Virus record (IMG/VR): IMGVR_UViG_3300034082_002556
Reading direction: 5' to 3' (one strand)
Origin: an uncultured virus (IMG/VR IMGVR_UViG_3300034082_002556)
Lineage: Duplodnaviria; Heunggongvirae; Uroviricota; Caudoviricetes
DNA length: 64,000 bases
Position numbers and translations under genes: made by a program
Notes under the pieces: model-generated
Databases searched by the model: none
What the model saw: only the letters and a program-made list of their open reading frames with translations
What the model was told of the DNA's origin: nothing
Shown: piece after piece, positions 8,968 to 48,900 of the stretch
How positions within the stretch are numbered: the first letter of the stretch is position 1
Layout of the letters: the number at the start of each line of letters is the position of its first letter

Positions 8968-9654
8968 TTAAGATGTATACTGTAATATCTGACCCAGGCT
9001 CAATATATTTTGTTGAGTTGCTGAGTTGCCAATGTTTTGTGTGCCTGATTTTATTTCAGTACCTTCATCAGTAAAGAAGTTGATGGCATAACGAACTGGA
9101 GGAACGCTGTAGTCAAGTGCAAATTTATTGGTTAATTTGCTGATCCCAATTTCTGTACTGTCAGAGTTCACGTTCATTGTGATGTTCATTTCACCACTAG
9201 CTGGAGTTGTGTCGTTGACTAGAGCACAAGTTCCCACTAGGTAAACTGTTCCTGTTCCACTGCCGGCAGCCGTGCAAGTGAACGTGTCACCCACGCTGGC
9301 ATTGGATGCAGCACCGGAGGCTTGCCAATTGGTAGTACCAAGACTAACAATGTAATATGTGTTACCAACAACCATGGCTTCGTCGTTGATAGCATTGACT
9401 GCGGCCACTAGGTATTTGATAGTGCCCTTCTGGCGCAGAATAAAAGCATCACGAAATTCACTGTCACCGGCAATAAATGCCACACATTTGACTACTGGAT
9501 ATGCTGTTGATGCTACAGATTTGGCACCGCCAACAACGCCAGCAAACTGATCCGTGTTAAACGTTGCTGGAAATACTGGATTTGTAAGTTCAGACCACAT
9601 GTTAAAACCAATGTCAACAGTGGTTGATTTTTTTATTTTTAGAGGACGTCCCAT
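8968..9654 (-). CDS. Hypothetical virion protein (MGRPL N-terminus)
   Basis: 228-aa ORF with strong SD (AAGGAG) and late promoter at 9748-9754. Confidence 0.6.
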   Translation of the reverse strand: MGRPLKIKKSTTVDIGFNMWSELTNPVFPATFNTDQFAGVVGGAKSVASTAYPVVKCVAFIAGDSEFRDAFILRQKGTIKYLVAAVNAINDEAMVVGNTYYIVSLGTTNWQASGAASNASVGDTFTCTAAGSGTGTVYLVGTCALVNDTTPASGEMNITMNVNSDSTEIGISKLTNKFALDYSVPPVRYAINFFTDEGTEIKSGTQNIGNSATQQNILSLGQILQYTS

Positions 9655-9659
9655 TTTGT

Positions 9660-9754
9660 TTTCTCCTTAAAGAAGTCCGATGCGGGTTCTAGCCGCTACG
9701 CCGCTGGGTTTAATCATCAGCATAAAACACATTATTGTGTTGACAAGTATTTAT
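9660..9754 (-). promoter_or_regulatory. Late promoter (ATAAATA, 9748-9754) plus structured ~90-nt 5' leader
   Basis: Three short stem-loops lie between the promoter and the SD. Confidence 0.5.
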
Positions 9755-24546: not shown

Positions 24547-24917
24547 TGGTATTGGCTCCTATCAGCGTGGGCGAGTTAGTTGATAAAATCACAATACTAG
24601 AAATCAAACTAGCCCATGCAAGAACACTAGACCAAACGGATAACATTCGTAAAGAACTGGTGTTGCTCGTGGAAATACTTGAGTCACATGATCTAGCTCA
24701 AGTCGTAGAAACACTTAGACAACAGCTTGCAAAAGTGAATCAGGAGTTGTGGGATATCGAAGATCACAAACGCAGTCATGAAAAACACAAACTATTCGAT
24801 GATGCGTTTATTGCTCTAGCTAGAAATGTGTACATCAAGAACGATCAACGTGCTGTTATCAAAAGACAGATCAATACATTATGTCACAGTGACATAGTGG
24901 AAGAAAAATTATATTAG
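24543..24917 (+). CDS. DUF6165-like protein
   Basis: APISVGELVDKITILEIK..LWDIED..F--LAR-VY--ND-RA--KR-IN..EEK-Y. Confidence 0.7.
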   Translation: MMVLAPISVGELVDKITILEIKLAHARTLDQTDNIRKELVLLVEILESHDLAQVVETLRQQLAKVNQELWDIEDHKRSHEKHKLFDDAFIALARNVYIKNDQRAVIKRQINTLCHSDIVEEKLY

Positions 24918-24925
24918 TTATTAAG

Positions 24926-25001
24926 AGAACTGCTACGCAGTTCTTTGTTCTTCGCTTACGCTCGAACAATGTTTTGATTTGTTTTATTGAGCGTAAGCGA
25001 A
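24926..25001. other. Cluster of hairpins and inverted repeats (terminator- or origin-like)
   Basis: agaactgc-tac-gcagttct (24926-24944); 13-bp perfect inverted repeat ttcgcttacgctc (24951-24963) / gagcgtaagcgaa (24989-25001). Confidence 0.6.
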
Positions 25002-25350
25002 ACAGTTATCATCTAGATTCTTTGGTCATAGTTGCCCGTTAACCGGGCAAGGTATGATTCGTCGTCATCATCTGAGTTCGTATCAGTCATCTAGTATCAG
25101 GAGATTTACAGTACATTGGCATTATCGTACTGTATCGGAGGCGGTTATGCTGTACCCCCTACCCCAGCCTTGTCTCACAACGGAGTGCAGTTGATCCCAT
25201 ACTAGCGAAATCACTTGCATAGCGGTTGTATCTGTTTCACAGAGCCGCAATCTTTTAGGCCTAAGTTAGCTTGTTCTTTGACGCCCAAGATCTGATGGCA
25301 CAGCACAACCTGTACAACCTCAATGGGGCCAGTCCACGACTGGCACAGTG
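25002..25350 (-). ncRNA. Candidate large structured non-coding RNA, family not recognised
   Basis: No ORF of 60 aa or more; multiple stems, a 14-bp long-range helix and a 7-bp pseudoknot; mismatches resolve as G-U pairs only on the minus strand. Confidence 0.65.
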
Positions 25351-25411
25351 TCTAATTTGTTGCTTTAAAATTTGTTTGGTAAGAGTGGATCAACACACTT
25401 GCCAAGATGCC

Positions 25412-26128
25412 TTATTTTAATTTGATAGTTTCTAACACAGGACGAATTGTTGCATGTTGCAAGCTAATCCAGTATTCTACAAAATCAAATCGTATTAATT
25501 TGTGTTTGAGGTCTAAATGCTTGATAATGTTGCCGTACACTATTTCAAATTTTTCTAAATTAATCAAGTTGCCAAATGATACTTCTAGTAGTCTGTTGTC
25601 TACGAACTGTGATTCGTTGCTAACAAACTGTGCAGTATCATCATACACAAAATCAGAATACTGATTGTTGTTTTTGTATGTTGCTAGCCACTGAGTCGCC
25701 TGTTTCTCTAATAAGTTGCCTGGGGTAATTCTTATTATTTTTGCATTGGGGAAAAACAATAATATTTTAGAAATTTCATCATTGCGGCAATAGTGATTAG
25801 AGAATATCACCTGATCCATCAAACTGTAATTTAAATTTTTTCTTCCAATTTCTGTATTGATGTCGTGTATTAGTTGTTGATTGAGTTCAAGTTGTTGAGT
25901 TTGTTTGTATTTTATATTTGTAAGTTTTGAGTCAGTTGGTCTGAATATAACCTGCCCATGTTCGCTGATTCCAAAATAGTAACATCCTGTTTGACCATAA
26001 TGAAAATTTACAATCGCTGCCAGCAAATCGCCAGCAGCTCCTGGGGGGTAGACTATCCATACACATGGATCGTCTTTTGAAAAATCAACACCGTCTATGA
26101 AATGTTCAAATTTACTATCGTACTTCAT
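25412..26128 (-). CDS. Hypothetical protein (weak sulfotransferase-like/P-loop N-terminal motif)
   Basis: IVYPPGAAGDLL motif; visibly more AT-rich than its neighbours. Confidence 0.5.
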   Translation of the reverse strand: MKYDSKFEHFIDGVDFSKDDPCVWIVYPPGAAGDLLAAIVNFHYGQTGCYYFGISEHGQVIFRPTDSKLTNIKYKQTQQLELNQQLIHDINTEIGRKNLNYSLMDQVIFSNHYCRNDEISKILLFFPNAKIIRITPGNLLEKQATQWLATYKNNNQYSDFVYDDTAQFVSNESQFVDNRLLEVSFGNLINLEKFEIVYGNIIKHLDLKHKLIRFDFVEYWISLQHATIRPVLETIKLK

Positions 26129-26563
26129 TTACAGTTGCATTTTGTTTATAATATGTGATCCATGTACTCTAACTTGTATATGACCATTGTAATAATCTCG
26201 TGATTCTAATACTTTTCTTGAAAACTGCTCTCTTGCCTCAATGTAACTACATTCTGATTTGGAGTTGCAATAAAAAAGTATTTCTCTGGTGAAGTTTTCG
26301 GTGCCTAGTTTTTCGATGTCTGAAGTCAATTCTGGGCTTGACCCATAGTACTCTCTCCAGTCTGAGTCGACTTTTGATCGTATCTTTTTCTTCTTCTTTG
26401 TGCCGTTTTTGAGTTTGACTGTTTTTTGAGTTGTCTTACTAAATTTTGCTAATTTTTTGCCTATGTACTTGCGTCCAGAAAGATTATTTGTGATCAAATA
26501 AACAAATCCTACACAATCTTCTGGTAAAGTCTCGATCGGAGTATTTTGATATAACCAGGTCAT
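26129..26563 (-). CDS. Stand-alone GIY-YIG family endonuclease
   Basis: GFVYLITN--SGRKYIGKK, W--YYGSS, F-REIL, E--Q, YYN. Confidence 0.85.
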   Translation of the reverse strand: MTWLYQNTPIETLPEDCVGFVYLITNNLSGRKYIGKKLAKFSKTTQKTVKLKNGTKKKKKIRSKVDSDWREYYGSSPELTSDIEKLGTENFTREILFYCNSKSECSYIEAREQFSRKVLESRDYYNGHIQVRVHGSHIINKMQL

Positions 26564-26620: not shown

Positions 26621-28390
26621 TTATATAGAATTCGTGTCTATGTCGTTACTGTAGCTGGTAAATCCGTTTTCCTTGATAACCCGTAGTGTGTTTTCTACTC
26701 GGCTTGCCAGTTCGTCCTTGTGAGAAACCAGCCAGATTGATTTGTTTCGTTCGCGAGCCATTTGTTTCAACACACCCAGTGCAGATTCAACCCCAACTGT
26801 GTCCATGCCTGAATCAATCATCTCATCAACAAATAATACATTGATGGGTTGATACAAACTCTCCCACACATCTCGAAATGCCCAGGAGATGCCTAGGATC
26901 AGTCGATTGCGCTCGCCGCGAGATAGATTATCAAAATCTAATTCTCGGCCTAGTTCAGTAATTTCCACAGTCAGGTCATTCTGAAATACCACCTGGTGTG
27001 GCAATCCAATGCGATCCAGATAGTGTGTGAGTCTGCTGTTGAGGTAACTTAAATTCTGGTCAATGATCTTTTTGCGAACAAAACTATCCTTGCTGGTTAG
27101 CAGTTTGAGCAAGAAGTCTTGATGTTCTTGCAGTCGAGTTAGAGCATTGAGTGTATCATAAGTGATAACCTGCAATGCTTGTCCTTGCATTTCTTCTATT
27201 TGTTCTTTGTATGTGTCAACATCAGATTGTCTGCTGGATAGATCTTTGCGCAGTGTTTCTAGGCTGTTGCGATGATTCAATGCGTCTTCTAAGGTGTCGT
27301 AGAACACAACAGGGGCTGTACCAATAGGTCCTAGCTCTTTTAATTTGTCTTCATGCTCCAGTCTTTGAGACTGATTGGCCAATAACTGTAGTGCATGTTC
27401 TTGCAGTGTTTTCTGGCGTTGTTCCTTGACTGTGTCAAGACTGTTGTCGTGTATTTCAGTACCGCATGCAAAGCATTTGTGATTTGAAATCTCAACCAAG
27501 TCTTGACGGATCTGATTGACTTGTTTTTCAATTTTAGAGTTATCGGCATCGATGGATCTAATCCACTTGGTAGCATCATCAATGGATTTTTTCTTTGCAT
27601 GAAAAATCTCCAAATCACGATGAGCTTGTACTTCTGCATCAATATCGATGTGTTCTAGATCAGCAATGGCCTGCGCCAGCTTGGCAACATCGTCGTCACG
27701 TTTGGTAATCCACATTCGTTGTCGTTTACGCAAACTTTCAATTTGTTCTTCAATTCGTTTGTTGGCTTCCGACACTGCACGTATACGAAACTCTTCTTGA
27801 GTGATTGCTTCCTTGGTGGATCGGTTGAGTTCGCGAATCTTATCTGCACGTTCACTCAACAGGGTAATACCCAGCAGTTGCTCAATGATCACACGCTGAT
27901 CATTGGCTTTCAAACTCAAGAAAGGTTCGGTGTACGTGTTGAGTGCAACAATATGTCTGAACATGTCCAACGGCATGCCAAGTATGCGTTCAATGTCTGA
28001 TTGTGTTTCTCGACTGTCGCCTTGTGCTTCATCAACAGCAACTTGTTCTTCACTGTCAACATAAAATTTAAGAACATTGGGTTTGCGGCCACGCTCAATA
28101 CGATAGTCACGCCCATTGATTGCAAAGTCTAAACTCACAAACATGTTCTTACCATTAGTTCTATTGATAAGATTGTCTTTGCGAATATTTGTCAAGGCCT
28201 GACCATACAATGCATAGCTCACAGCATTGAGAATGGCTGTTTTACCAACACCGTTGCGGGCGCCATCACCTCCGAGGTCAAGATTTTCTCCCAGGACCAG
28301 CGTCAAGTCGCGACGATCAAAATCAACTGCTTGTGTGTTGTTTCCGATGCTGAGAAAGTTACGGGCTGTAATAGTTTTAATTCGAATCAT
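26621..28390 (-). CDS. gp46: Recombination endonuclease ATPase subunit (gp46/SbcC/Rad50-like)
   Basis: RNFLSIGN, NGVGKT Walker A, CxxC hook, LSRGE signature, FVDE, VSH. Confidence 0.93.
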   Translation of the reverse strand: MIRIKTITARNFLSIGNNTQAVDFDRRDLTLVLGENLDLGGDGARNGVGKTAILNAVSYALYGQALTNIRKDNLINRTNGKNMFVSLDFAINGRDYRIERGRKPNVLKFYVDSEEQVAVDEAQGDSRETQSDIERILGMPLDMFRHIVALNTYTEPFLSLKANDQRVIIEQLLGITLLSERADKIRELNRSTKEAITQEEFRIRAVSEANKRIEEQIESLRKRQRMWITKRDDDVAKLAQAIADLEHIDIDAEVQAHRDLEIFHAKKKSIDDATKWIRSIDADNSKIEKQVNQIRQDLVEISNHKCFACGTEIHDNSLDTVKEQRQKTLQEHALQLLANQSQRLEHEDKLKELGPIGTAPVVFYDTLEDALNHRNSLETLRKDLSSRQSDVDTYKEQIEEMQGQALQVITYDTLNALTRLQEHQDFLLKLLTSKDSFVRKKIIDQNLSYLNSRLTHYLDRIGLPHQVVFQNDLTVEITELGRELDFDNLSRGERNRLILGISWAFRDVWESLYQPINVLFVDEMIDSGMDTVGVESALGVLKQMARERNKSIWLVSHKDELASRVENTLRVIKENGFTSYSNDIDTNSI

Positions 28391-28953: not shown

Positions 28954-29618
28954 GGCTTCATGGCCGCCTTGTCAAGATAATGATTAAATGTCACAAAGTA
29001 TGACAGCATGCCGTGGTTCAACAATCCTAATTCAGCAAGCCAACATAACAATAGAAGTCGGTGCGATCTCTTTTGGCCATTGAAACATGTGTACAAGTGT
29101 GATATAGGCAACAGTGGATGCTTGACAGCATGGGTAGTATCCAACTTCTCCAGTTGAGGAAAGTCGTACCAGTAATGAGTGCGTATTACCACAGGTGGTT
29201 CTGAATTACACAGTGTTCTAGCAGCCAACTTAACTTCTTCTTCGAGTCCGTATAGATTGGTGAGAATGAGTATTTTCTCACATGGTAACCCAAAGTCAGA
29301 TACCAATCTAAAAAAATTGTACAGAGTATTGCCCATGCTGTTGATTGATGGGTAATAGTCAGTGTCGTGATGTATTATTAGTAGTCGTTGATTGTGACCA
29401 AACGTTGTATTGCGAAATTGCCAAAGTTGATCAGCTAGTTGATCCATCTGATGATCGTAATCAACTAAATTGAATGTGGCCACGATCTCGTGGTGTTCTT
29501 CAATTACATCCATCACCTCTTGTTTGAGTCTAGTAGAATAAAACGTATCAAAGCTGGATATTTGTATACGTTGTAATTCTTCAAGTTCTTCAGGAGTTAA
29601 ATCTTTTCTCACAGACAT
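28950..29618 (-). CDS. Hypothetical protein (possible N-terminal half of a glycosyltransferase-like protein)
   Basis: YTCFNG--R-HR--L---L---GLL--G--SY near the C-terminus. Confidence 0.5.
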   Translation of the reverse strand: MSVRKDLTPEELEELQRIQISSFDTFYSTRLKQEVMDVIEEHHEIVATFNLVDYDHQMDQLADQLWQFRNTTFGHNQRLLIIHHDTDYYPSINSMGNTLYNFFRLVSDFGLPCEKILILTNLYGLEEEVKLAARTLCNSEPPVVIRTHYWYDFPQLEKLDTTHAVKHPLLPISHLYTCFNGQKRSHRLLLLCWLAELGLLNHGMLSYFVTFNHYLDKAAMKP

Positions 29619-30625
29619 TGATAAACCTGTAGCAATAGCTTTGGGTCATAAAAATCTGATTCAATCTTGGTAATTTGATCAATCACAATTTGATCAACTG
29701 ACTCAAATTTAACCTGCCCGGGACTCAGGTCTTCTTCAACTCCGGCTCGTTTGTTAGCAATCAATGCCATTTCACGCAAATTGTATTTTTGCACAAACGT
29801 GTCTTTGATATAATTGGCTTCCTCGTAAGAAATTTCAATGTCTAACTGAACTCGCACATGCATTCGTGGTGCCAAAATTGTATCAGCATTGTCAATTACA
29901 TTTGACAAATTGTACGATCTGTAAGTGGGTTGATTGTCCCAGACAAAGTACTCTGGCTCTTGGCCCCATTCAAGAATCATCATACCACGTGCGTCATCTC
30001 CTGCATCAGAAAAGTTGTGCGGGAACGCATTTCCAATGTAGCTAACATTTCGTTTGTGTTGTCGTAGATGAAAATGCCCAGAAAAAACAGAATCAAATCC
30101 ACCAAAGCTATCAACTCTAAGTTCGCCGTGATCTGGCATCTCTACCATGGCATTCATCTTGAAGCTTGGCAGTTCAAAATGCCCAAACATGTACTTGCCT
30201 TTTAGCTTGGCAATTTTTTTGTGATCATCGCCAATCAACCAAGGAGCAATCACTACATCACCTTGATTGAACCAGTCATTGCAGATCACAATGTTTGGTA
30301 AATGCTTGGCCCACTCGGCCCCGTGAATATCTCGTTTGTCACGATAGTACAGGTCGTGATTCCCGGGAATAAAGTAAAATTTTTCAAATGCAGCCGACAA
30401 CTTTTCAAGTGCTCTAACACTGAATTGCAGTGTTTGCAAATTGATTGACGCTCGGTGGTTGTGCCAGTCACCTAGAAACATTCCAGTCTCGCATCCCTCG
30501 GCTTGAGCCTTGCTGATAAACCAGTCTACAAACTGGTCACAGTCCTGATTGTGCACAAGACTATTGGACTTTAGACCCCAGTGGATGTCGGTGAATACTG
30601 CTGTTTTTTTAAATAGATTTGCCAT
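29609..30625 (-). CDS. gp47: Recombination endonuclease nuclease subunit (gp47/SbcD/Mre11-like)
   Basis: TDIHWG, LGDWH, GNHD, GHFE, SGHFH metallophosphoesterase motifs. Confidence 0.93.
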   Translation of the reverse strand: MANLFKKTAVFTDIHWGLKSNSLVHNQDCDQFVDWFISKAQAEGCETGMFLGDWHNHRASINLQTLQFSVRALEKLSAAFEKFYFIPGNHDLYYRDKRDIHGAEWAKHLPNIVICNDWFNQGDVVIAPWLIGDDHKKIAKLKGKYMFGHFELPSFKMNAMVEMPDHGELRVDSFGGFDSVFSGHFHLRQHKRNVSYIGNAFPHNFSDAGDDARGMMILEWGQEPEYFVWDNQPTYRSYNLSNVIDNADTILAPRMHVRVQLDIEISYEEANYIKDTFVQKYNLREMALIANKRAGVEEDLSPGQVKFESVDQIVIDQITKIESDFYDPKLLLQVYQCL

Positions 30626-30631
30626 TCTGTT

Positions 30632-30660
30632 ATTATACATTATTCAATGTTGATACTCAA
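30632..30660 (-). promoter_or_regulatory. Sigma70-like promoter TTGAGT-17-TATAAT, likely giving a leaderless gp47 mRNA
   Basis: -10 box ends 6 nt before the ATG at 30625. Confidence 0.55.
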
Positions 30661-30729: not shown

Positions 30730-31611
30730 TTATTCAGGATTGATAGTTACTTCGCCAGGCGCACTTGCTGGCGATTTGGAAAATTGTCTTGACCATGATG
30801 GGCTCAATCCGTTCATTTCCAAGATATCGTCACGGATGTTTTGCATTTTTTTCTCGATGTTTAGGACACGAGTGAAACTATTAGTGATAGCGGCAGTATA
30901 ATACGCAAAAGGGTTCTGCGATTTTGACTCATCAAACTGGAGTCCGATTTGACTGAGTTGTAGCAAGGCTTGTCCTCGCATTTCTTCGTTGTAGGTGTAT
31001 CCACGCCAATTACTCCTTGTAGCATATCTTTCGCACAGCTTCATAAACATTGTGGCTAGTTTACGAGTCATGTTACCGTGATCTCTGCTGTAGCTGCCAG
31101 TGGTTAAGTCTCCGATCCAGTGGCTTTTGCCCACAATGTATGGAATCTTGTGATCTGTGATTCGATAGTGAAAAAACGGGGGGAAGTTGACTCTAACATG
31201 CACTGGATCAAGTACTGGCTCGTCAACAAGATCATCTAACGGATCTTCAGAGGGCAGTTCTTCAAACCCCAGGATGTCTTCAATTTTTTTCTTTTTGATT
31301 TTTGATTTAGGAACTTTTTTAGCTGCCATGGGAATATGCTCCCAGGTCATGATGCGGAACACCAAATCTGTGTTATTCAGTTTCTTTTCGTTTACTGCAA
31401 CGCCTGTTTCTTTTGTGAGTCGAGCCGCACGATTTCTGCGAGCTTCTGCAACAGTCTTTTGATTGATTTTGCTAACAGACGATAAAATAATATCATACTG
31501 ATGATCAGTAACTGGATCTAGATAGCTACAGTAGGTATTTTTGCTTGCGTGTATTTCTTTTAACAAATCTCGATTGTTGAGATAGTTAACTCTTGGTGGA
31601 GTGGTTGACAA
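30730..31611 (-). CDS. gp55: Late-transcription sigma factor (gp55-like)
   Basis: NYLNN--LL, NWRGYTY-EEM---A, FD--KS-NPFAY-T----NSF-R----EKK; TTG start after AGGAG. Confidence 0.88.
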   Translation of the reverse strand: MSTTPPRVNYLNNRDLLKEIHASKNTYCSYLDPVTDHQYDIILSSVSKINQKTVAEARRNRAARLTKETGVAVNEKKLNNTDLVFRIMTWEHIPMAAKKVPKSKIKKKKIEDILGFEELPSEDPLDDLVDEPVLDPVHVRVNFPPFFHYRITDHKIPYIVGKSHWIGDLTTGSYSRDHGNMTRKLATMFMKLCERYATRSNWRGYTYNEEMRGQALLQLSQIGLQFDESKSQNPFAYYTAAITNSFTRVLNIEKKMQNIRDDILEMNGLSPSWSRQFSKSPASAPGEVTINPE

Positions 31612-31630
31612 AGTGGATCTCCTATTCTTG

Positions 31631-31663
31631 TATTTATTATAGCACATTTTGTGTAGATGTCAA
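31631..31663 (-). promoter_or_regulatory. Consensus sigma70 promoter TTGACA-16-TATAAT overlapping a late ATAAATA box
   Basis: Plus strand reads tgtcaa at 31658-31663, attata at 31636-31641 and tatttat at 31631-31637. Confidence 0.75.
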
Positions 31664-42400: not shown

Positions 42401-42993
42401 ACACCACTGGCACAGTGCCACAACCAGCACCACCAGATATAGCACAGCTAACTACAGCATATTCAACTCTTGATGACTACAAAATGATTTCAGACAACAT
42501 TGTTTTTAATTCAGTAACGTTTAAACCATTGTTTGGAGCCAAAGCACCCTTGCAACTACAGGGCATTATCAAAGTGGTCAAGGCTTTGAACACAGTTGCA
42601 AGTGACAGCGAAATCAAGAGTCAAGTTGTTGCCAAGATTAATGAATATTTTACTATTGACAAATGGGATTTTGGTGATAGTTTTTATTTCTCAGAATTGG
42701 CTGCTTATCTGCACAGACAACTAGGATCCATAATCAGTTCAGTTGTGTTGGTGCCACTCAACCCTCTAAAAAGTTTTGGTGACTTGTATGAAATACGATC
42801 AGCACCAAATGAAATTTTTGTAAGCGCGGCAACTGTCAGCGACATCGAGGTAATTTCGGCACTAACACAAAGCAATATCCGAAGTCAAACTTCGGTATCA
42901 GGATTATATCCAGTAACCTCAATTGGTGCGCCTGGCATCACGATTGGACAAACTGGAACAACACCACTCACTAATGGTGGGAGTAACTACTAA
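39493..42993 (+). CDS. gp6: Baseplate wedge subunit gp6-like
   Basis: DFETLR, ENFLDTAERRDSV-RLA--VSY-PKR, FGDG, ES---IK-RAP--Y-TQNRMVNGEDY. Confidence 0.85.
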   Translation: MAKTTRQTAIFGVEDWKRLYQTYREADFQSYDFETLRKSFVDYLRLYYPETFNDYIESSEFIALLDVMAFMGQALAFRNDLNTRENFLDTAERRDSVVRLANLVSYTPKRNTSSQGYLKVFSVSTTESVVDYNGINLANVTIDWNDPTNPNWLEQFTTIVNSSLLASQKFGRPGNKQTILGVGTDEYTVNLVPGYLPVVPYTAVVDGVNMPFEVTSATSIGKAYVYEPPPQPNGAFNILYRNDGLGFGSNNTGFFFLFKQGVLQNQDFNLAEAIPNRTVAINIEGCNEQDHWLYKLDDVGSVASEWTFVNNIFAGAVEQLAPDQRTLYSITSRVNDQITLTFGDGVFSSIPVGTFRTYVRASNGLEYIINPEEMQNIVVPISYISRQGRLETITFTCGITTPVTNAQARESLAEIKQRAPARYYTQNRMVNGEDYNNFPFTEFNSIIKSKSVVRSSIGSSRYIDLTDVTGKYSSTNIFASDGVIYRENVLPSFEFSWFNRNDIVDVLSRSVYPVVAGRSLLQFYYENFPRPPLTVIGAGWNQSTSLVNETSGYFYYGPQKTPLPLGQYTNNNAKYITVGSLVQFRAPTGQFFDANNRLQTGTPTRADEKLTIWASVTSVVVDGTAQGLGNLPNGVGPVTLNNFVPTGALAQVVIPRFINQLPLTLQQSMIQQIELFRNFGIGFDNLNGTWYLISSTNLASTSPFSLSYAQNTQGLNLDASWLIQFTTNGQGYVVTSRGLDYKFASVLQTRFYYDGNGLVYDSTTGSVINDYIKVLKINSKPDTNEPLPSDIVMDIIGQPIQSDGYVNDYEVDISYVDSDGDGIADDPDFFDTIVEPSVDPSTKLVFFRQTVDFDDLERYLPVEPGVVISRYATLDDVELVKSEYVNGQVFYTTSTDKFYQLEVLFVNGIQQRTLVELSSYIARVGRGALSFQYRHNSALTNIIDPGTTNIIDMYLVTQSYYTAYQNYITDTTGTVPQPAPPDIAQLTTAYSTLDDYKMISDNIVFNSVTFKPLFGAKAPLQLQGIIKVVKALNTVASDSEIKSQVVAKINEYFTIDKWDFGDSFYFSELAAYLHRQLGSIISSVVLVPLNPLKSFGDLYEIRSAPNEIFVSAATVSDIEVISALTQSNIRSQTSVSGLYPVTSIGAPGITIGQTGTTPLTNGGSNY

Positions 42994-45900
42994 TGGCATT
43001 ACACAGAACCGTTGATCTTTTACCAGAGATTTTTCGTACAGGTACGAACCGCAAGTTTTTGGCAGCAACCCTAGACCAATTAACCCAGGAACCCAATGTT
43101 AATCGTACTCAAGGATACGTGGGGCGTCGAGTTGGTCCAGGCGTAAATCCTGCTGACAAATATTTGACAGAACCAACTGCAACTCGTACAGACTATCAGC
43201 TTGAGCCCGGTGTGGTATTGTTGGACCCCAACACATCACGTGCTCGTGATGTAATGACATATCCGGGCATAATTGATGCATTGAATTTGCAAAAAGGCGA
43301 TGTCTCACGTCAAGATCGGTTGTTTGAAAGCGAATACTATTCGTGGGATCCATTCTGCGACCTTGATAAATTCAATAACTACAGCCAATATTATTGGTTG
43401 CCAACAGGACCGTCATCAGTTGATGTTGGATCCAGTGATGTGTTGTTGACTGATGATTTTGCAGTTACTCGAACAGACACAGCATATCAATTCTTTGGAG
43501 TCCTAGGTAACAATCCAGTCATCACACTAGCACGTGGTGGATCATATACATTTGATGTCAATCAACTTGGTTACAATTTTTGGATTCAAGCCGCGCCTGG
43601 TATTAATGGTCGATTACCGCAAACACCAAATATCAGCAGCAGAGATGTATACGGTGTAACCAACAACGGCGACGATGTTGGTACTATCACCTTTGATGTT
43701 CCGTTAAAAAATGCTCAAGATTTTTATTATGCTCTAAACACACGGGCACCAGTTGACCTAGTTGCGCCAGAATTAAAATTCAATCAACTCAACAATATAT
43801 ACGTGTCGGCATTCCTAGCAGCCAATCCCACTGGGGTTGATGGTATCACTGAGTTAGATGGTCGAACAATAATTTTTACAAATCAGATTTCTGACCCAGC
43901 TGCTGGTGGCTGGCAAATTAACACACAGTTTGATCCAATAAACACTGGAGACACAGGTGCACTTGGTACATATGATTCAATTTTGTTTGACCAAACCACT
44001 GACATAACACTACAAAGTCAGCGTTACAGCATTTGGCAAATCAACTATGTCTACGATAACGACGGTCAGCCATTTATGCAACTTAGTAGCATTGCTGAAG
44101 TTCCAGCACTGACTAAATTTCGCATTGATTACGGAACACAATACAGCAGTACAGTTTGGTACAAAGCCGACACTGGCTACTTTGAACAACAACCTTTGTT
44201 GACGGCCATACAAGATACATTGTACTATCAAGATAGTGTAAACCCAGAAATTTTTGGTCAGATTAGACTAATTGATGCAGATGCGTCGGCGCCAATTGAC
44301 ATCAACGAAATTATTGGAGCCAAAAACTATACCAGCCCAAATGGTGTAGTGTTTACCAATGGATTAAAAGTACAATTTCGCGGAGTCACGAGTCCTGCTG
44401 GATATGAAAATCTAGAATACTATGTTGAAGGAGTGGGCACAGGCCCTGGATCAATTGCCAAAGTTGGATTTGTTGACGGGCAAGCATATTTTGGTCCTTG
44501 GCACGTGTACAATGGCCAAAAGATTACTGGCCTGGCCTCGTCAACTGATTTTCAACAATACATTTATGATTCAGTTGATGAAAGCATTGCTAATCTTGGA
44601 GCAGGGGCACCAGAAGGTGCACCGTTACCAACTGCTTCAGTTGCAGGTGCGGCATTAGGCAACGGAATACGGCTTGTGCCAGTGTCCGACATGATCACGC
44701 CTGAAACATACACAACAAGTGAACTTGTTCCATATTCAAGCATTCCGTATGATACCGGCGGATACGATGCAAATTTAAATTCACCGTTGGTACCAGACTA
44801 CCTGGTACAGAACCGCTCTAGTCAAAGTAGAAACGCTTGGAGCCGTTGCAACCGTTGGTTCCACATTGATGTTATCAACTACAGTGCTGAACGAAACAAT
44901 CAACCTTCAGTGGTCAATAATGACCAACGTGCAAAACGACCAATCATTGAATTCCGGGCAAATCTTGACCTTTGGAACACTGGCACACAGGCCAAAGAGC
45001 CAGTTAATATCATTGACTTTCAAACCACCGACGCACTTGGCAATGTCAACGGACAGACTGGATATGGGGTAGATGGCTACAACTTTTTGAATGGTACTCG
45101 TGTAATTTTTGCAGCCGACATTGATCCGGCAGTGCGAAACAAAATTTACACAGTTAGATTTATTGACCCAACCAATTCTGGAACACTGATTATTGATCTA
45201 GTGCCGGCTGCTGATGGCAATCCGCTATATGATCAGACCGTGGTGAGTTTAAACGGTCTAAATCAACAAGGCAAAAGCTTTTGGTTTAATGGTGTAACAT
45301 GGCAGTTGGCACAGCAAAAAACCAAAGTAAATCAAGCGCCGCTATTTGATGTTTATGACATCAATGGATTTAGTTTTGGTGATCGTGCAGTATATCCTAG
45401 CACTACCTTTACTGGTAGTCGATTGTTTGGTTACACTGATGGCGGCCAGTCAGTTACCGACGTTGTGCTGGGCTTCCCGCTAAAGTTTTTGAACATCAAC
45501 AACGTTGGCGATATACTATTTTCTAATTATCTTTACACCGACACATTTATCTACGTGCGTGACAAAACCAGCACAACCCAGGCTATCAGCACAGGATTTG
45601 TGCGTCAGTACATTGATCGCACATCATTCTCTAGTCAACTGGGCTGGCAACCAGCGGCAGCTAAAAATCGTAGCCGCCAGGTGTTCAGATTTACCTATGA
45701 CGCAACTCCGCTGATATTAGACGTTCCGGTTGACACTAGTTCAGTCTACCCACCAGTGCAAGTGTTTGCCGATGGAGTATTTGTTGATACTACCAAGTAC
45801 TCAACTACAGTAAGCGACACGTCGACTACTATAACATTCAATGTTACGATTCCGGTAAACACCATAATTGAACTGCAAGTTATCAGCAACTATGCTAGCA

Positions 45901-48900
45901 AGATTGGATTCTATCAAGTACCATTGAATTTAGAAAACAATGCTCCAAACGGAAACAGCCCACAGTTCACACTTGGCACAATTCGCACACACTACGATAG
46001 TATTGGACAAAATTTACGTGGTCTAGTGGGGGTAATTAACGGTGCTAACAATTCTCGCGATCTCGGCGACATTATTCCTTACGGCACAAACATTGTGCAA
46101 CATTCATCACCGCTGGTATTACCCGGTGTGTATCTGCGCGACCCGCAATATGAATTGTTTAATTCGCTGACCTTTAGCAATCAGGAGTACAGCAAGTACA
46201 AAGCTCGATTGACCGATCTTGCGGGCCAAGGCGACTTTATTAATTCAACACCAACCCAAGTACTAGACAGTGTGCTGTCAGAAATGACTCTTGGCAAGAC
46301 TGAGATGTTTCCGTTTTACTGGAGTGACATGATTCCAGGTGGCGAAACATACACAGAAATCAACTATACCTACTCGCAAGTCAGCACAGATGTATTTGGT
46401 ATTAATAAAGTTTATGATTTTACCCAGTCCAATTTCCAGAGCGTATTGGTTTATTTAAATGGTACAATTCTAACTCGTGGGTATGATTACACTGTTTCTA
46501 CCAACAGCGCAACAATCACAATCTCTGCACCGCTGGCCATTGGTGATTTAATTACAATTCGAGAATACGATACTACGTATGGTAGTTTTATCCCCAACAC
46601 GCCCACAAAGATGGGCTTGTACCCAGCGTACCGTCCAGAAATTTATCTAGACGAAACATACGTTGAGCCGACGTTGGTGATTCGTGGACACGATGGGTCA
46701 ATTACCATAGCGTTTGGTGACTACCGCGACAATGTGTTGCTGGAATTTGAGACTCGTATTTTCAACAACCTTAAAATTGTTACACCGGTGCCATTAGACG
46801 CAGATGATGTAATCCCTGGGCAGTTCCGCACAACCGACTATTCATTAACTGAAATTAATTCAATCTTGTTGCCAGATTTTCTATCATGGGTTGGCTGGAA
46901 CAAGTTGGATTATACTTCACAAAACTATCTACCAAACAATCCATTCACCTACAACTATAGTCAGAGTGGTAACCGTCTCACCGCGCAACCTTTGTTGGGT
47001 GCATGGCGTGGTATCTATGAATATTTCTATGATACTATCACACCCAACACTACTCCGTGGGAAATGTTAGGTTTTAGTCAAGAACCGTATTGGTGGGAGG
47101 ATGCATATGGTCCTGCACCATACACATCAGGAAACTTGGTGTTGTGGCGCGACCTAGAACGTGGGTACATTGCAGATCCGTTGTCTCCAAGGATTGATCC
47201 GCGATACGCTCGTCCAGGCTTAACAACTGTTATCCCAGCAGGTACCGAAGGTGCACTGTTGGATCCGTTGCAGTCTACAGTTGGAAACTATGATGCAACC
47301 AGTTTCCGTCGTAGTTGGACATTTGGTGATGATGGTCCTGTAGAAAACGCCTGGAGAACCAGTTCAGCTTGGCCGTTTGCAGTCATGCGCTTGTTGGCAT
47401 TAACAAAACCAGCTGAATTTTTTAGCCTGTTTGCTGATCGTGATCGTTATGTGTACAACACTGGCATTGAACAGTATCTATGGGATAACCGTTACAGACT
47501 TGAAGCCAGTAACCTGACACCGTTATACGGCAATGGGGTTAGCAAAGCCAGCTACAACAACTGGATTATTGATTATAATCAACAGCGAGGCGTTGATAGT
47601 TCGTCGCTGTTATCTAGAACGTTGGCCAATGTTGATGTAAGACTTTGCTGGCGCACAGCAGCATTTACTGATAAGAATTATTTAAAAATTTACTCTGAAC
47701 GGTCAACTCCAACTGGTACAAACAACAGCTTGTTGCTGCCAGACGAAAGTTATCAGGTTTTGTTGTATCAAAATCAACCTTTTGAACAAGTGACCTATAG
47801 TGGAGTAATTGTTCAACGCACCGACACTGGGTGGGCAGTTTTTGGTTACAACAGTGTTGCTAGCTATTTTGAAATTGCAGTATCCAAGCCAACAGGACAG
47901 TTTGTTGTGGTATCAGCTGGCGGCTCGCAGGAGCGTGTGTCAATCGAGTACTCAAATACAGTCGCACAGATTCCTTATGGATTTGTATTCACCAGTCAGG
48001 CAGCAGTGTGTGATTTCTTGTACAGCTATGGCAAGTTGTTGGCTGACCGCGGCATGACTTTTGAAGGAATTGAAAACGGTTATATCATGAACTGGCCGCA
48101 AATGGCACAGGAATTTTTGTATTGGAGCAACCAAGGATGGACTTCAGGTAGTATTATCAACTTGAACCCGGCTGCAACAAGTATTTCAGTTCTACGACCT
48201 GGGGCAGTGGTTGAAAGCATACAGCCACCAAGACTTGATAGCATTGTGCTAAATCAAAATCGCACTGCAATATCTCCAAGCGAGTTGGTAATTGATCGAT
48301 TTGAAAACACATTTAAAATCTCAACAACAACATCAAGTTTTATTAACTTTTTGAATCTGAGATTTACAGCATACGAACACATGGTGGTGTTGGACAATCG
48401 AAGTATTTTTGCTGATCTAATCTACGATCCTGTGACAGGTGCCCGCCAAAGCCGCGTGCTGGTTTCGGGATGGCTAACAGGAGATTGGAACGGAACAGTT
48501 AATGCTCCTGGTTTTGTTCTCAATCAAGACAACATTCAAGAATGGCAACCAAATAGCAAGTACACCAAGGGCGACATTGTGTTGTTCAAGGATCAGTACT
48601 GGAGTGCAAGCACCATCATCAGGCCCAGCGCAGAATTTGATTTCAGCCTGTGGATCAAGAGCGACTACGGACAAATACAAAAAGGATTGTTGCCTAACTC
48701 TGCCAACGCCAGCGATCAACTGGCACGATCTTACAGCGTATATGATGCCAACCTTGAAACAGAAGTTGACATTTTCAGCTATGGGCTAATTGGATTCCGT
48801 CCTCGACAGTACATGCAGTCATTAAATCTTGACGATGTTAGTCAGGTCAATCTGTATCAACAGTTTCTTGGTACAAAAGGAACAGTTCGTGCAACCAACT

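What the first reader, a model, noticed from the sequence alone, without database searches (positions are those of the whole stretch)
25002..25350. Unannotated large, ornate non-coding RNA candidate on the minus strand
Seen: the only ~490-nt ORF-free gap in a densely coding genome, and it is packed with pairings. Minus-strand stems: GCCAGUC/GACUGGC (25328-25344); a 14-bp long-range helix GGUUGUGCUGUGCC (25310-25297) with GGUACAGCAUAACC (25156-25143), whose two non-Watson-Crick pairs are G-U on the minus strand but would be A-C on the plus strand; GAUCU-UGGGC/GCCUA-AGAUU; UCUG-UGAAA-CAGA; UGCA..UGAUUUC/GGGAUCA..UGCA, whose loop CUAGUAU (25205-25199) is complementary to AUACUAG (25097-25091), forming a pseudoknot; UACAGUAC/GUACUGUA; UCAUA-UUGCCCG/CGGGCAA-UAUGA; and a second possible pseudoknot GGUUGUA (25319-25313)/UACAACC (25230-25224). 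I do not recognise tmRNA, RNase P, tRNA or group I/II intron signatures. Inference: a phage-encoded large structured RNA (ribozyme, RNP scaffold or replication primer RNA), comparable in kind to the phage-associated GOLLD/ROOL RNAs but not identified as either.
Basis: partly seen in the sequence, partly recalled or inferred. Interest (0 to 1): 0.88.

Follow-up and report, generated by a model that had tools for sequence, protein, structure and literature searches.

The report
New large structured phage RNA family
The gap holds a real, previously uncatalogued ~430-base folded RNA carried by many uncultured lake phages, and it keeps two seven-letter words identical to each other even as their spelling keeps changing, which points to an unknown partner that reads both.

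Summary
The 494-nt ORF-free gap (24918-25411) is real and encodes, on the minus strand, a member of a conserved ~430-nt structured RNA family. A 19-nt degenerate motif retrieved 120 IMG/VR loci, nearly all homologous by nhmmer, plus 40 of 120 metagenome loci; 0 of 120 prokaryote-genome loci. No match in Rfam 15 or in 50,697 deposited phage genomes. A consensus structure of 81 pairs is 90% paired in 28 sequences, 50 pairs with compensatory changes (0/500 shuffles reach it). G-U outnumbers A-C 227:54, so the minus strand is the RNA strand. Four do not, including the 14-bp long-range helix and pseudoknot 2.

Unexpected: two heptamers ~59 nt apart (25067-25073, 25008-25014) are identical in 107 of 109 sequences across 14 spellings, changing at least 45 times on the tree. 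The tetramers before them stay fixed and different. No complement exists within the RNA or nearby. I infer, without testing, a stand-alone phage RNA that presents two identical address heptamers to a trans partner. Expression could not be tested.

The parts
24926..25352 (-). Whole RNA as delimited by conserved, covarying structure (about 430 nt); transcript ends not observed
   Evidence: nhmmer family hit 25442-24914; outermost supported helices P0 and the 3' hairpin
25280..25352 (-). 5' junction. P0 is 25352-25350 with 25282-25280. P1 hairpin is 25344-25338 with 25334-25328. P3 is 25327-25324 with 25287-25284. P2 local hairpin is GUACAG 25315-25310 with CUGUGC 25303-25298
   Evidence: P0: middle pair AU 24, GC 4. 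P1: 6 of 7 pairs compensatory. P3: CG 25, UA 3. P2: 4 of 4 pairs compensatory in the family register. The window's own P2 register was read from the sequence
25222..25248 (-). P5 helix GCGG/CCGC (25248-25245 with 25225-25222), enclosing the conserved CUCUGUGAAACAGAUACAAC
   Evidence: 99.1% paired, 3 of 4 pairs compensatory
25185..25220 (-). P6 long hairpin; its loop 25205-25199 is the 5' strand of the pseudoknot
   Evidence: 13 pairs, 99.5% paired, 9 compensatory, many G-U
25091..25097 (-). 3' strand of the pseudoknot (AUACUAG), pairing with the P6 loop
   Evidence: Per-sequence complementarity test and more than 20 covarying word pairs, in both clades
25137..25181 (-). Core around the near-invariant block GGUACNGNNNAACCGCCUC. 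P7 is GUUGUG 25181-25176 with CAUAAC 25149-25144. S2 is GGGGG 25159-25155 with CCUCC 25141-25137. The two are interleaved, so they form either a pseudoknot or alternative states
   Evidence: P7 100% paired, 2 of 6 compensatory; S2 100% paired, 1 of 5 compensatory. P7 variants GAU/GUC, GUG/CAU, GCG/CGC, GUG/CAC
25107..25134 (-). P8 hairpin, 8 bp in the window and shorter in relatives
25067..25090 (-). Module 1: AUGACUG, a variable stretch, ACUC (25077-25074), then heptamer K1 (25073-25067, AGAUGAU)
25032..25050 (-). P10 hairpin UUGCCCG/CGGGCAA between the two modules
   Evidence: 89% paired in the family register; 25049/25034 and 25048/25035 covary in the 97-sequence alignment
25008..25030 (-). 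Module 2: UAUGACC, a variable stretch, AUCU (25018-25015), then heptamer K2 (25014-25008, AGAUGAU)
   Evidence: K1 equals K2 in 107 of 109 sequences; flanks differ
24945..24969 (-). 3' hairpin with a G-A internal loop: stem, GA, GC, GNRA loop, GC, GAA, stem. In the window and some relatives it can extend to a longer hairpin with 25001-24988
   Evidence: Strong covariation; the long form appears in the MFE fold
24926..24944 (-). Terminal hairpin with conserved loop CGUAG
   Evidence: 92.4% paired, 6 of 8 compensatory; also present where the next gene is co-oriented (L181)
25412..26128 (-). 238-aa ORF with no family match, inserted between the nuclease gene and the RNA; not a regular neighbour of the family
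26129..26563 (-). 144-aa GIY-YIG (SegE-type domain only) protein, the commonest upstream neighbour of the RNA
   Evidence: Pfam PF19835, E 2.9e-34; neighbour u1 or u2 in 37 of 72 loci

Best explanation
The locus encodes a stand-alone, phage-borne, ~430-nt structured non-coding RNA of a family not yet catalogued.

Shown:
- It is conserved in uncultured lake (and a few marine) phage contigs.
- It folds into a multi-helix 5' domain that differs between clades.
- It has a conserved core: a long hairpin whose loop pairs with a downstream strand (pseudoknot), two interleaved helices around an almost invariant 19-nt block, two repeated modules (AUGAC, variable stretch, AYYY, heptamer) flanking a hairpin, and two 3' hairpins.
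- The minus strand is the RNA strand.
- The two heptamers are held identical while their sequence changes repeatedly.

Inferred mechanism: the folded body is a scaffold that presents the two identical heptamers as address sequences to a partner acting in trans. The most likely partner is a nucleic acid carrying the complementary 7-mer, either two sites on one molecule or two molecules. Its sequence would differ between phage or host lineages and would drag both heptamers along. The RNA would then act as a bivalent binder (sponge, clamp or guide-like adaptor) during infection.

The existence of the RNA family I hold at about 0.95. The confidence below is for the trans-partner mechanism.
For: Family:
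- 40 of 120 metagenome loci are members.

Structure:
- 81 pairs, 90.0% of cells paired, 50 pairs compensatory.
- Covariation score 0.349 against a shuffle mean of 0.136 (0 of 500 shuffles reach it) and at most 0.084 for slid partners.
- Pseudoknot supported sequence by sequence.

Strand: G-U 227 against A-C 54.

Independence from neighbours:
- The usual context is gp47, gp46, a small nuclease, then the RNA, facing the baseplate-hub module.
- Members also sit beside unrelated genes (L144, L155, L181).
- One member is inverted relative to its neighbours (L142).
- In L181 the RNA follows a terminator-like hairpin.

Heptamers:
- Identical in 89 of 91 viral sequences.
- Identical in 28 of 29 well-aligned hold-out metagenome sequences, read from HMM columns without assuming identity.
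- Identical in 107 of 109 sequences overall, against a shuffle mean of 15.7 and maximum of 30.
- 14 spellings in that set, plus AUAGCAG, ACGAAAU and ACAGAAU elsewhere.
- At least 45 (K1) and 46 (K2) state changes on a tree built without those columns.
- Sharp borders: the preceding tetramers are ACUC (106 of 109) and AUCU (103 of 109), identical in 0 of 109 at offsets -3 to -1; position +8 is identical in 23 of 109. This argues against duplication or gene conversion and for selection on exactly 7 nt.
- The variable positions are mostly A/G. A cis or trans U would tolerate both, so strict identity implies a reader that distinguishes A from G (inference).
- No reverse complement inside the RNA.
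- No Watson-Crick partner column in either clade; the best mutual-information partner of each K1 position is the same position of K2.
Against: - No partner has been found. The complement of the heptamer is not at any syntenic place within 6 kb either side in 62 loci. In the 64-kb window it occurs 6 and 8 times per strand outside the locus, against about 4 expected, which is not informative.
- Predicted accessibility of the heptamers is only slightly above the RNA average (unpaired probability 0.47 and 0.50 against 0.41).
- In the window clade a 4-nt AUCU (25105-25102) could pair in cis with the first four bases of either heptamer.
- Expression, transcript ends and any binding are untested.
- Parsimony counts of changes are inflated if phages recombine.
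- The structure was derived partly from the same alignment on which it was scored.
Confidence: 0.35

Rival explanations
1. RNP scaffold: the two heptamers are twin binding sites for a dimeric (or tandem) RNA-binding protein of the phage or host, and the RNA sequesters or assembles that protein, as CsrB/RsmZ-type sponges do.
For: - There are two copies of one short motif 51-63 nt apart.
- Positions 2-4 and 6 (G, A, U, A) are nearly fixed in the main clades, as expected for base-specific protein contacts.
- About half of the spellings contain GGAUG, which from memory resembles the CsrA consensus (recalled, not tested).
Against: - A protein gives no reason for the variable positions 1, 5 and 7 to stay identical between the two sites through dozens of changes.
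- About half of the members have AGA rather than GGA.
- Distant members have unrelated heptamers (AUAGCAG, ACGAAAU).
- No conserved protein neighbour exists across all contexts.
Confidence: 0.2
2. Processing sites: the same endonuclease or ribozyme activity cuts within both heptamers and releases the ~55-nt hairpin unit between them, as a small RNA, a circular RNA after ligation, or a type III antitoxin-like unit. Identical junction words would let the ends be rejoined.
For: - Identical words flank a conserved hairpin unit of 51-63 nt.
- Repeated module architecture (AUGAC ... AYYY-K).
- From memory, twin identical loops mark the splice sites of HAC1/XBP1, and repeat boundaries mark the ToxI units cut by ToxN (recalled).
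Against: - A nuclease would conserve its site rather than let it change 45 times.
- There is no tandem array, and no toxin or ligase gene is consistently nearby.
- No self-cleaving ribozyme family matched in Rfam.
- No RNA reads were available to look for ends or junctions.
Confidence: 0.13
3. Self-assembling ornate RNA, like ROOL and GOLLD: the function lies in a homo-oligomeric particle, and the heptamers are symmetric contact points.
For: - Size, ornate multi-domain fold and phage carriage match.
- ROOL and GOLLD form RNA-only cages (abstract of bioRxiv 10.1101/2024.12.08.627333, seen only in the search listing).
Against: - The heptamers are not self-complementary, and no complement exists in the RNA.
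- Identity between two different sites of one chain is not required by homo-oligomer symmetry (inference).
- No tRNA genes are nearby: 0 in 64 kb.
Confidence: 0.1
4. Template with jump sites: a polymerase copies the segment between the heptamers, and identical end words let the nascent strand re-anneal for repeated copying, as in rolling-circle reverse transcription of the DRT2 non-coding RNA (recalled).
For: It is the one known logic that demands identity of two short words irrespective of their sequence, with sharp borders.
Against: - No reverse transcriptase or other candidate polymerase among the 30 commonest neighbour clusters or in the atypical contexts.
- The unit contains stop codons in the common spellings (read from the sequence).
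Confidence: 0.05
5. Not a functional RNA of its own: a structured 3' UTR or bidirectional terminator region, or a DNA-level element (protein-binding direct repeats, origin) between convergent operons.
For: - It lies between convergent genes in most loci.
- Both strands fold better than shuffles.
- In one relative (L046/L098) the terminal hairpin carries a C-A mismatch that would be a G-U pair on the plus strand.
Against: - About 430 nt with 50 compensatory pairs and a covarying pseudoknot is far beyond a terminator.
- The G-U excess fixes one strand.
- The element keeps its full architecture in unrelated contexts and orientations.
- No consensus terminator or sigma-70 promoter was found.
Confidence: 0.05

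Closest known systems
GOLLD and ROOL RNAs (large ornate RNAs of phages and prophages)
   Same: Several hundred nucleotides, many helices and pseudoknots, carried by phages, found mainly in environmental sequence, function unknown.
   Different: No Rfam match at any threshold tried. No adjacent tRNA genes. Different conserved blocks. Oligomerisation untested. GOLLD and ROOL are not known to me to carry identity-covarying words (recalled).
CsrB/RsmZ-type protein-sponge RNAs
   Same: Repeated copies of one short motif offered by a structured RNA; some spellings contain GGAUG.
   Different: Only two copies. The motif spelling drifts, and in about half of the members lacks GGA. There is a large conserved body around the sites.
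ToxI and other type III antitoxin RNAs; CRISPR-like repeat units
   Same: Direct repeats in an RNA bounding a hairpin-containing unit of a few tens of nucleotides; known in phages as mimics (recalled).
   Different: Identity is limited to 7 nt with different fixed flanks. There is no tandem array and no toxin or Cas gene nearby.
DRT2 defence non-coding RNA (rolling-circle reverse-transcription template)
   Same: Two identical short words at the ends of a template segment, which is a selection for identity rather than complementarity (recalled).
   Different: No reverse transcriptase within 6 kb either side in 72 loci; carried by a phage rather than a host.
freshwater-2 RNA (RF02980), present in the same window
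   Same: Structured RNA motif of lake metagenomes and phages with unknown function.
   Different: 84-nt cis-regulatory-type motif in a 5' UTR at 9652-9742; no sequence or structural relation seen.
PA5oct ncRNA001-004 (RNA-seq-defined non-coding RNAs of the nearest cultured relative)
   Same: Long non-coding transcripts (236-619 nt) of a related jumbo phage, unknown function (PMC7318152, passages read).
   Different: Other genome positions; three of the four were fetched and show no nhmmer or motif similarity. The syntenic gp46-to-hub region of PA5oct and Atu_ph07 gives no hit.

Membership tests
Any Rfam 15 family (including GOLLD, ROOL, OLE, raiA, HEARO, group I/II introns, RNase P, tmRNA, 6S, self-cleaving ribozymes) | Covariance-model match at or near the family's gathering score | tested here: not met
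   At gathering score the whole window gives only freshwater-2 at 9652-9742. A permissive scan of 24800-25550 gives three chance-level hits at E 3.5-5.7, far below gathering score.
tRNA / tmRNA | ARAGORN detection | tested here: not met
   0 genes in 64 kb.
GOLLD/ROOL-like ornate phage RNAs (as a kind) | Large size, conserved multi-helix fold with covariation, phage carriage | tested here: met
   About 430 nt; 15 helices, 50 of 81 pairs compensatory; viral contigs.
GOLLD/ROOL-like ornate phage RNAs (as a kind) | Homo-oligomeric RNA-only assembly | not testable with these tools
   Needs native gels or cryo-EM.
GOLLD/ROOL-like ornate phage RNAs (as a kind) | Frequent adjacency to tRNA genes (recalled) | tested here: not met
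   No tRNA in the window; neighbours are gp46, a nuclease and baseplate genes.
Type III toxin-antitoxin antitoxin RNA | Tandem array of full-length direct repeats next to an endoribonuclease toxin gene | tested here: not met
   Only 7-nt identity with differing flanks; no such toxin among the neighbours.
Reverse-transcriptase-associated template RNA (retron, DRT2) | Adjacent reverse transcriptase gene | tested here: not met
   No RT domain in the 30 largest neighbour clusters or in 29 ORFs of atypical loci.
Intrinsic terminator / 3' UTR element | GC-rich hairpin followed by a U tract; no further conserved structure | tested here: not met
   0 terminator-like sites; conserved structure spans about 430 nt.

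The most novel reading that the evidence does not exclude
The RNA is the specificity component of a new kind of phage system. Two copies of a freely evolving 7-nt address, displayed on a conserved ribonucleic scaffold, base-pair with a matching pair of sites on a phage or host nucleic acid. That would be a bivalent, reprogrammable RNA guide or clamp working without any recognisable Cas, Argonaute, IscB, IS110 or reverse-transcriptase partner. It might recruit the small GIY-YIG or PD-(D/E)XK nuclease that usually sits next to it.
Probability: 0.12. Interest if true: 0.95.

Novelty: new variant of a known kind. Interest (0 to 1): 0.82.

Why it matters
Large, intricately folded RNAs of unknown function are rare, and each new class has eventually revealed new biochemistry. 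This one has three things going for it:
- It is abundant in lake phage sequence: more than 100 distinct viral sequences and 40 metagenome loci from capped scans.
- It already has enough diversity for a well-supported structure.
- It carries a signal I have not seen described: two heptamers that covary by identity with razor-sharp borders.

That signal turns a vague question about what the RNA does into a concrete one, namely what reads the same seven bases twice. Compensatory mutagenesis and partner capture could answer it.

Tried and rejected
- Known families: Rfam at gathering score and at E<=10 and ARAGORN gave nothing.
- Deposited phage genomes: blastn with the window RNA, a 12-kb flank, and two other family members found no match.
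- Own assembly: not held. The nearest record G001 (a 21%-complete fragment) gave no match.
- Cultured relatives found through gp46 (PA5oct 48.6%, Phosso 46.3%, Atu_ph07 43.6%): no family hit in the syntenic gp46-to-hub regions, nor in three of the four published PA5oct ncRNAs. ncRNA003 was not fetched.
- Prokaryote genomes: 0 of 120 pattern hits are family members.
- RNA-seq: no RNA holder listed among 24 runs, all lake-water DNA.
- Cis partner for the heptamers: exact 7- and 6-mer reverse complements in the RNA, mutual information against all columns in both clades, occurrences within 6 kb either side and in the 64-kb window. None was found.
- Pairing between the variable stretches before the two heptamers: inspected by eye and inconsistent.
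- Ideas rejected on the sequence patterns:
  - Box C/D or K-turn reading of GAUGA.
  - Anticodon-loop complementarity (position 2 is G, where a pyrimidine would be needed to pair with purine 37).
  - Translational bypass (stops in all frames upstream).
  - Small ORFs starting in the heptamer (AUG is lost in the AUA spellings).
- Accessibility by partition function was uninformative.
- freshwater-2 RNA as partner: it contains a sense-like GAUGAU, not the complement.
- mafft-qinsi was unavailable.
- No covariance model was built and R-scape was not available, so covariation rests on MAFFT alignments, RNAalifold and pair counts.
- Literature: three full-text searches found no description of this family. 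Only listings were seen, plus passages of PMC7318152.
- Earlier notes of this scan: nothing.
Full report
**What is at the locus**

The window belongs to an uncultured lake phage with a T4-type core. The genes upstream on the minus strand are:
- a gp55-like late sigma factor (30730-31647);
- gp47/SbcD (29609-30640);
- gp46/SbcC (26621-28390);
- a 144-aa protein consisting only of a SegE-type GIY-YIG domain (26129-26563);
- a 238-aa ORF without any family match (25412-26128).

Converging from the other side are DUF6165, DUF6614, two unknown proteins and a baseplate hub protein. By gp46, the nearest cultured relatives are jumbo phages: Pseudomonas PA5oct (48.6% identity), Sinorhizobium Phosso (46.3%) and Agrobacterium Atu_ph07 (43.6%). 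Between the convergent gene ends lies a 494-nt stretch with no ORF, the largest such gap in the window. Both strands fold better than shuffled sequence (z -4.5 and -4.0), so energy alone says little.

**It is a conserved family**

- Exact search with a 28-nt piece found only two near-identical contigs.
- Relatives of the neighbouring DUF6165 protein led to loci with about 70% identical intergenic sequence.
- From their alignment I took the most conserved block, GGTACNGNNNAACCGCCTC, and scanned IMG/VR. Together with the earlier loci, 122 gave nhmmer hits to a three-sequence profile, most with E below 1e-20, and 110 sequences were unique.
- The same pattern in the metagenome collection gave 120 loci, of which 40 are family members.
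- In one genome per prokaryote species it gave 120 chance matches and no member (capped scan).
- Rfam 15 has nothing here, either at gathering score over the window or at E<=10 over the locus.
- ARAGORN finds nothing.
- blastn of three family members against 50,697 deposited phage genomes finds nothing.
- Three full-text literature searches gave no description.

**Structure**

The 5' third differs between two main clades: a "W" clade that includes the window, and an "L" clade. The rest aligns across the family. On 28 W-clade sequences I derived helices by block-wise RNAalifold and scored them with the pair-counting tool on an independent MAFFT alignment (A4):
- 81 pairs in 15 helices;
- 90.0% of 2219 cells form standard pairs;
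- 50 pairs show changes on both sides;
- covariation score 0.349, against 0.136 for shuffles (0 of 500 as high) and at most 0.084 when partners are slid by 1-3 columns.

One caveat applies: the structure was derived from closely related data, which favours it over the slid controls.

The elements, 5' to 3' on the minus strand, are:
- a closing helix P0;
- hairpin P1;
- helix P3 enclosing hairpin P2;
- helix P5;
- a long hairpin P6;
- helix P7 (GUUGNN/NNCAAC), interleaved with helix S2 (GGGGG/CCUCC) around the near-invariant block;
- hairpin P8;
- module 1;
- hairpin P10;
- module 2;
- a hairpin with a G-A internal loop and GNRA tetraloop;
- a terminal hairpin with loop CGUAG.

The P6 loop pairs with the strand just upstream of module 1. 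In 79 unique sequences the longest Watson-Crick match between the two regions is at least 7 bp in 48. The same holds for only 96 of 774 cross-pairings. The matching words differ widely, for example CUAGUAU/AUACUAG, AUCUAU/AUAGAU, AUUUAUUAU/AUAAUAAAU, UUAGCGU/ACGCUAA and CUGAUAU/AUAUCAG, and this is seen in both clades.

P7 and S2 cannot both be nested. They form either a pseudoknot or alternative states, and I could not decide which.

**Strand**

In the supported pairs there are 227 G-U cells against 54 A-C cells. 90.0% of cells are standard pairs on the minus strand, against 82.2% if the other strand is read.

Scored on the same alignment, five hold:
- P1;
- P6 (in a slightly different register);
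- pseudoknot 1;
- P8;
- the inner part of P10.

Four do not:
- The striking 14-bp long-range helix is paired in only 45% of cells. In the window its 5' strand instead forms the local hairpin GUACAG/CUGUGC, the counterpart of covarying hairpins in relatives (CGAG/CUCG, CGG/CCG, UGG/CCA, AUG/CAU). Its 3' strand is the conserved block used by P7 and S2.
- Pseudoknot 2 shows no compensatory change.
- UCUG/CAGA shows no compensatory change.
- GAUCU-UGGGC/GCCUA-AGAUU is often pairable but has no compensatory change, and it competes with P0 and P3, which do.

**Context**

In 72 loci with 6 kb of flank on each side, the usual order is:
- gp47, then gp46;
- variable inserts (radical SAM proteins, a deaminase and others);
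- a small nuclease;
- the RNA;
- facing the other way, DUF6614 and the hub.

The gene just upstream is the 142-aa GIY-YIG protein in most loci (cluster of 38). In others it is a 171-aa PD-(D/E)XK protein (cluster of 8, Pfam PDDEXK_15), a non-homologous replacement at the same place. No reverse transcriptase was seen.

The RNA is not tied to this neighbourhood:
- L144, L155 and L181 carry it beside unrelated genes (DNA polymerase III fragment and exoribonuclease; tail fibre; ClpP and GP88).
- In L142 it is inverted relative to gp46 and the nuclease.
- In L181 it follows a terminator-like hairpin and keeps the whole architecture, including both 3' hairpins, although the next gene is co-oriented.

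So it behaves as a gene of its own rather than as a 3' UTR or a terminator for the convergent operon.

In the window, the 238-aa ORF has been inserted between the nuclease gene and the RNA. A remnant of the nuclease gene's 3' end is still recognisable just before the RNA.

**The unexpected feature**

Two modules of the form AUGAC, 6-8 variable nt, A-Y-Y-Y, heptamer flank hairpin P10. Unbiased mutual information over 97 sequences put three position pairs exactly 59 nt apart among the top ten. These pairs covary by identity, not complementarity:
- AA 49, GG 43, AG 2;
- GG 60, AA 32, GA 2;
- UU 65, AA 21, GG 4.

The heptamers (window: AGAUGAU at 25073-25067 and 25014-25008) are identical in 89 of 91 viral sequences.

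As a hold-out test I used the metagenome hits that do not duplicate viral sequences, and read the heptamers from HMM match columns. 28 of 29 well-aligned sequences are identical, and one differs at one base. New spellings appear, including AGAUCAA, GCAUAAU, GAAUAAU and UGGUAAU.

Over 109 cores:
- 107 are identical, against a mean of 15.7 and a maximum of 30 after shuffling.
- On a FastTree built without those columns, the heptamer changes state at least 45 (K1) and 46 (K2) times. By position that is 27 changes at position 1, 14 at position 5, 17 at position 7 and none at position 6 (always A). Recombination would inflate these counts.

More distant members have AUAGCAG (L181), ACGAAAU and ACAGAAU, again in both copies. 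L142 differs at two of seven positions but continues with an identical hexamer.

The borders are sharp:
- The tetramers before the heptamers are ACUC (106 of 109) and AUCU (103 of 109).
- These are never identical at offsets -3 to -1.
- The base after the heptamer is identical in only 23 of 109.

That pattern is hard to obtain from duplication or gene conversion. It indicates selection on exactly seven bases.

**What reads the heptamers?**

- There is no reverse complement in the RNA.
- There is no Watson-Crick-type partner column in either clade; the best partner of each K1 position is the same K2 position.
- There is no syntenic complement within 6 kb either side.
- Nothing informative turns up in the 64-kb window.

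The common variation is A/G at positions 1 and 5, which a U opposite would tolerate in either form. Strict identity therefore implies a reader that distinguishes A from G. A nucleic acid whose own sequence varies does this naturally. A protein gives no reason for the variable positions to match.

I therefore favour, at about 0.35, a trans-acting nucleic-acid partner bound at two sites (or two partner molecules), with the conserved fold as scaffold. The rivals are:
- a dimeric protein site (0.2);
- twin processing sites releasing the P10 unit (0.13);
- a ROOL/GOLLD-like self-assembling particle (0.1);
- a template with jump sites (0.05);
- a non-functional or DNA-level element (0.05).

None of these was tested directly. 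No RNA-seq run holds the locus, so even transcription is inferred from covariation and strand bias.

**Comparison and novelty**

In kind, this is closest to the large ornate phage RNAs GOLLD and ROOL, but it fails their membership test (no model match) and lacks their tRNA neighbourhood. It is not related to the four RNA-seq-defined ncRNAs of PA5oct, as far as the three that I fetched show. It is a new family within the known kind "large structured phage RNA of unknown function". Its identity-covarying heptamer pair is a feature for which I know no precedent (a statement from memory plus the three searches named above).

**Verdict**

The interpretation as a novel large phage ncRNA is supported. 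Interest is high.

Noticed in passing
window 9652-9742 (-): A freshwater-2 RNA (RF02980, 65.3 bits against a gathering score of 49.9) sits in the 5' UTR of the 228-aa gene 8968-9654. It contains a GAUGAU word in the sense orientation, not the complement of the heptamers.
   Followed up: partly
window 25356-25411 and 26129-26170 (-): The 238-aa ORF (25412-26128) looks like an insertion. The nuclease gene now ends ...AUAAACAAAAUGCAACUGUAA. A remnant resembling the ancestral end (AAACAAAUUUUAAAGCAAC; compare relatives' AUAAACAAAAUUUAAGGCAAC) persists just upstream of the RNA. The same 238-aa protein occurs at another position in locus L146.
   Followed up: partly
loci L133-L212: The small gene next to the RNA is either a GIY-YIG-only protein (~142 aa, 38 loci) or a PD-(D/E)XK protein (~171 aa, PDDEXK_15, 8 loci). 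This is a non-homologous nuclease swap at one genomic position.
   Followed up: partly
loci such as L149, L151, L143, L207: One to three radical SAM genes (337-523 aa), and in some loci a dCMP/cytidine deaminase or a short-chain dehydrogenase, are inserted between gp46 and the nuclease gene in relatives. They are absent from the window.
   Followed up: no
window 42993-57137 (+): A single 4714-aa ORF. Together with the PA5oct/Atu_ph07-like gp46, it suggests a jumbo phage.
   Followed up: no
L142 4233-4480 (+): A family member inverted relative to gp46 and the GIY-YIG gene. Its two heptamers differ at positions 1 and 7 (AGCGAAU and UGCGAAG), but both are followed by the same AUAUCC.
   Followed up: partly
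L181 5860-6290 (-): A complete family member in a non-T4-like context (ClpP-like protease upstream, GP88-family gene downstream on the same strand). It is preceded by a terminator-like hairpin, and both heptamers read AUAGCAG.
   Followed up: partly
window 24945-24969 (-) and all relatives: The penultimate hairpin has a fixed inner motif (stem, GA, GC, GNRA, GC, GAA, stem) with a freely covarying outer stem. It superficially recalls hammerhead stem II with its tandem G-A pairs, but it lacks the CUGAUGA strand.
   Followed up: no
window 25137-25163 (-): The invariant block reads GUAGGGGGUAC...CCGCCUCC, that is, a Shine-Dalgarno-like run paired with an anti-Shine-Dalgarno-like CCUCC. There is a loose resemblance (from memory) to the 3' end of 16S rRNA, but no Rfam SSU hit.
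   Followed up: no
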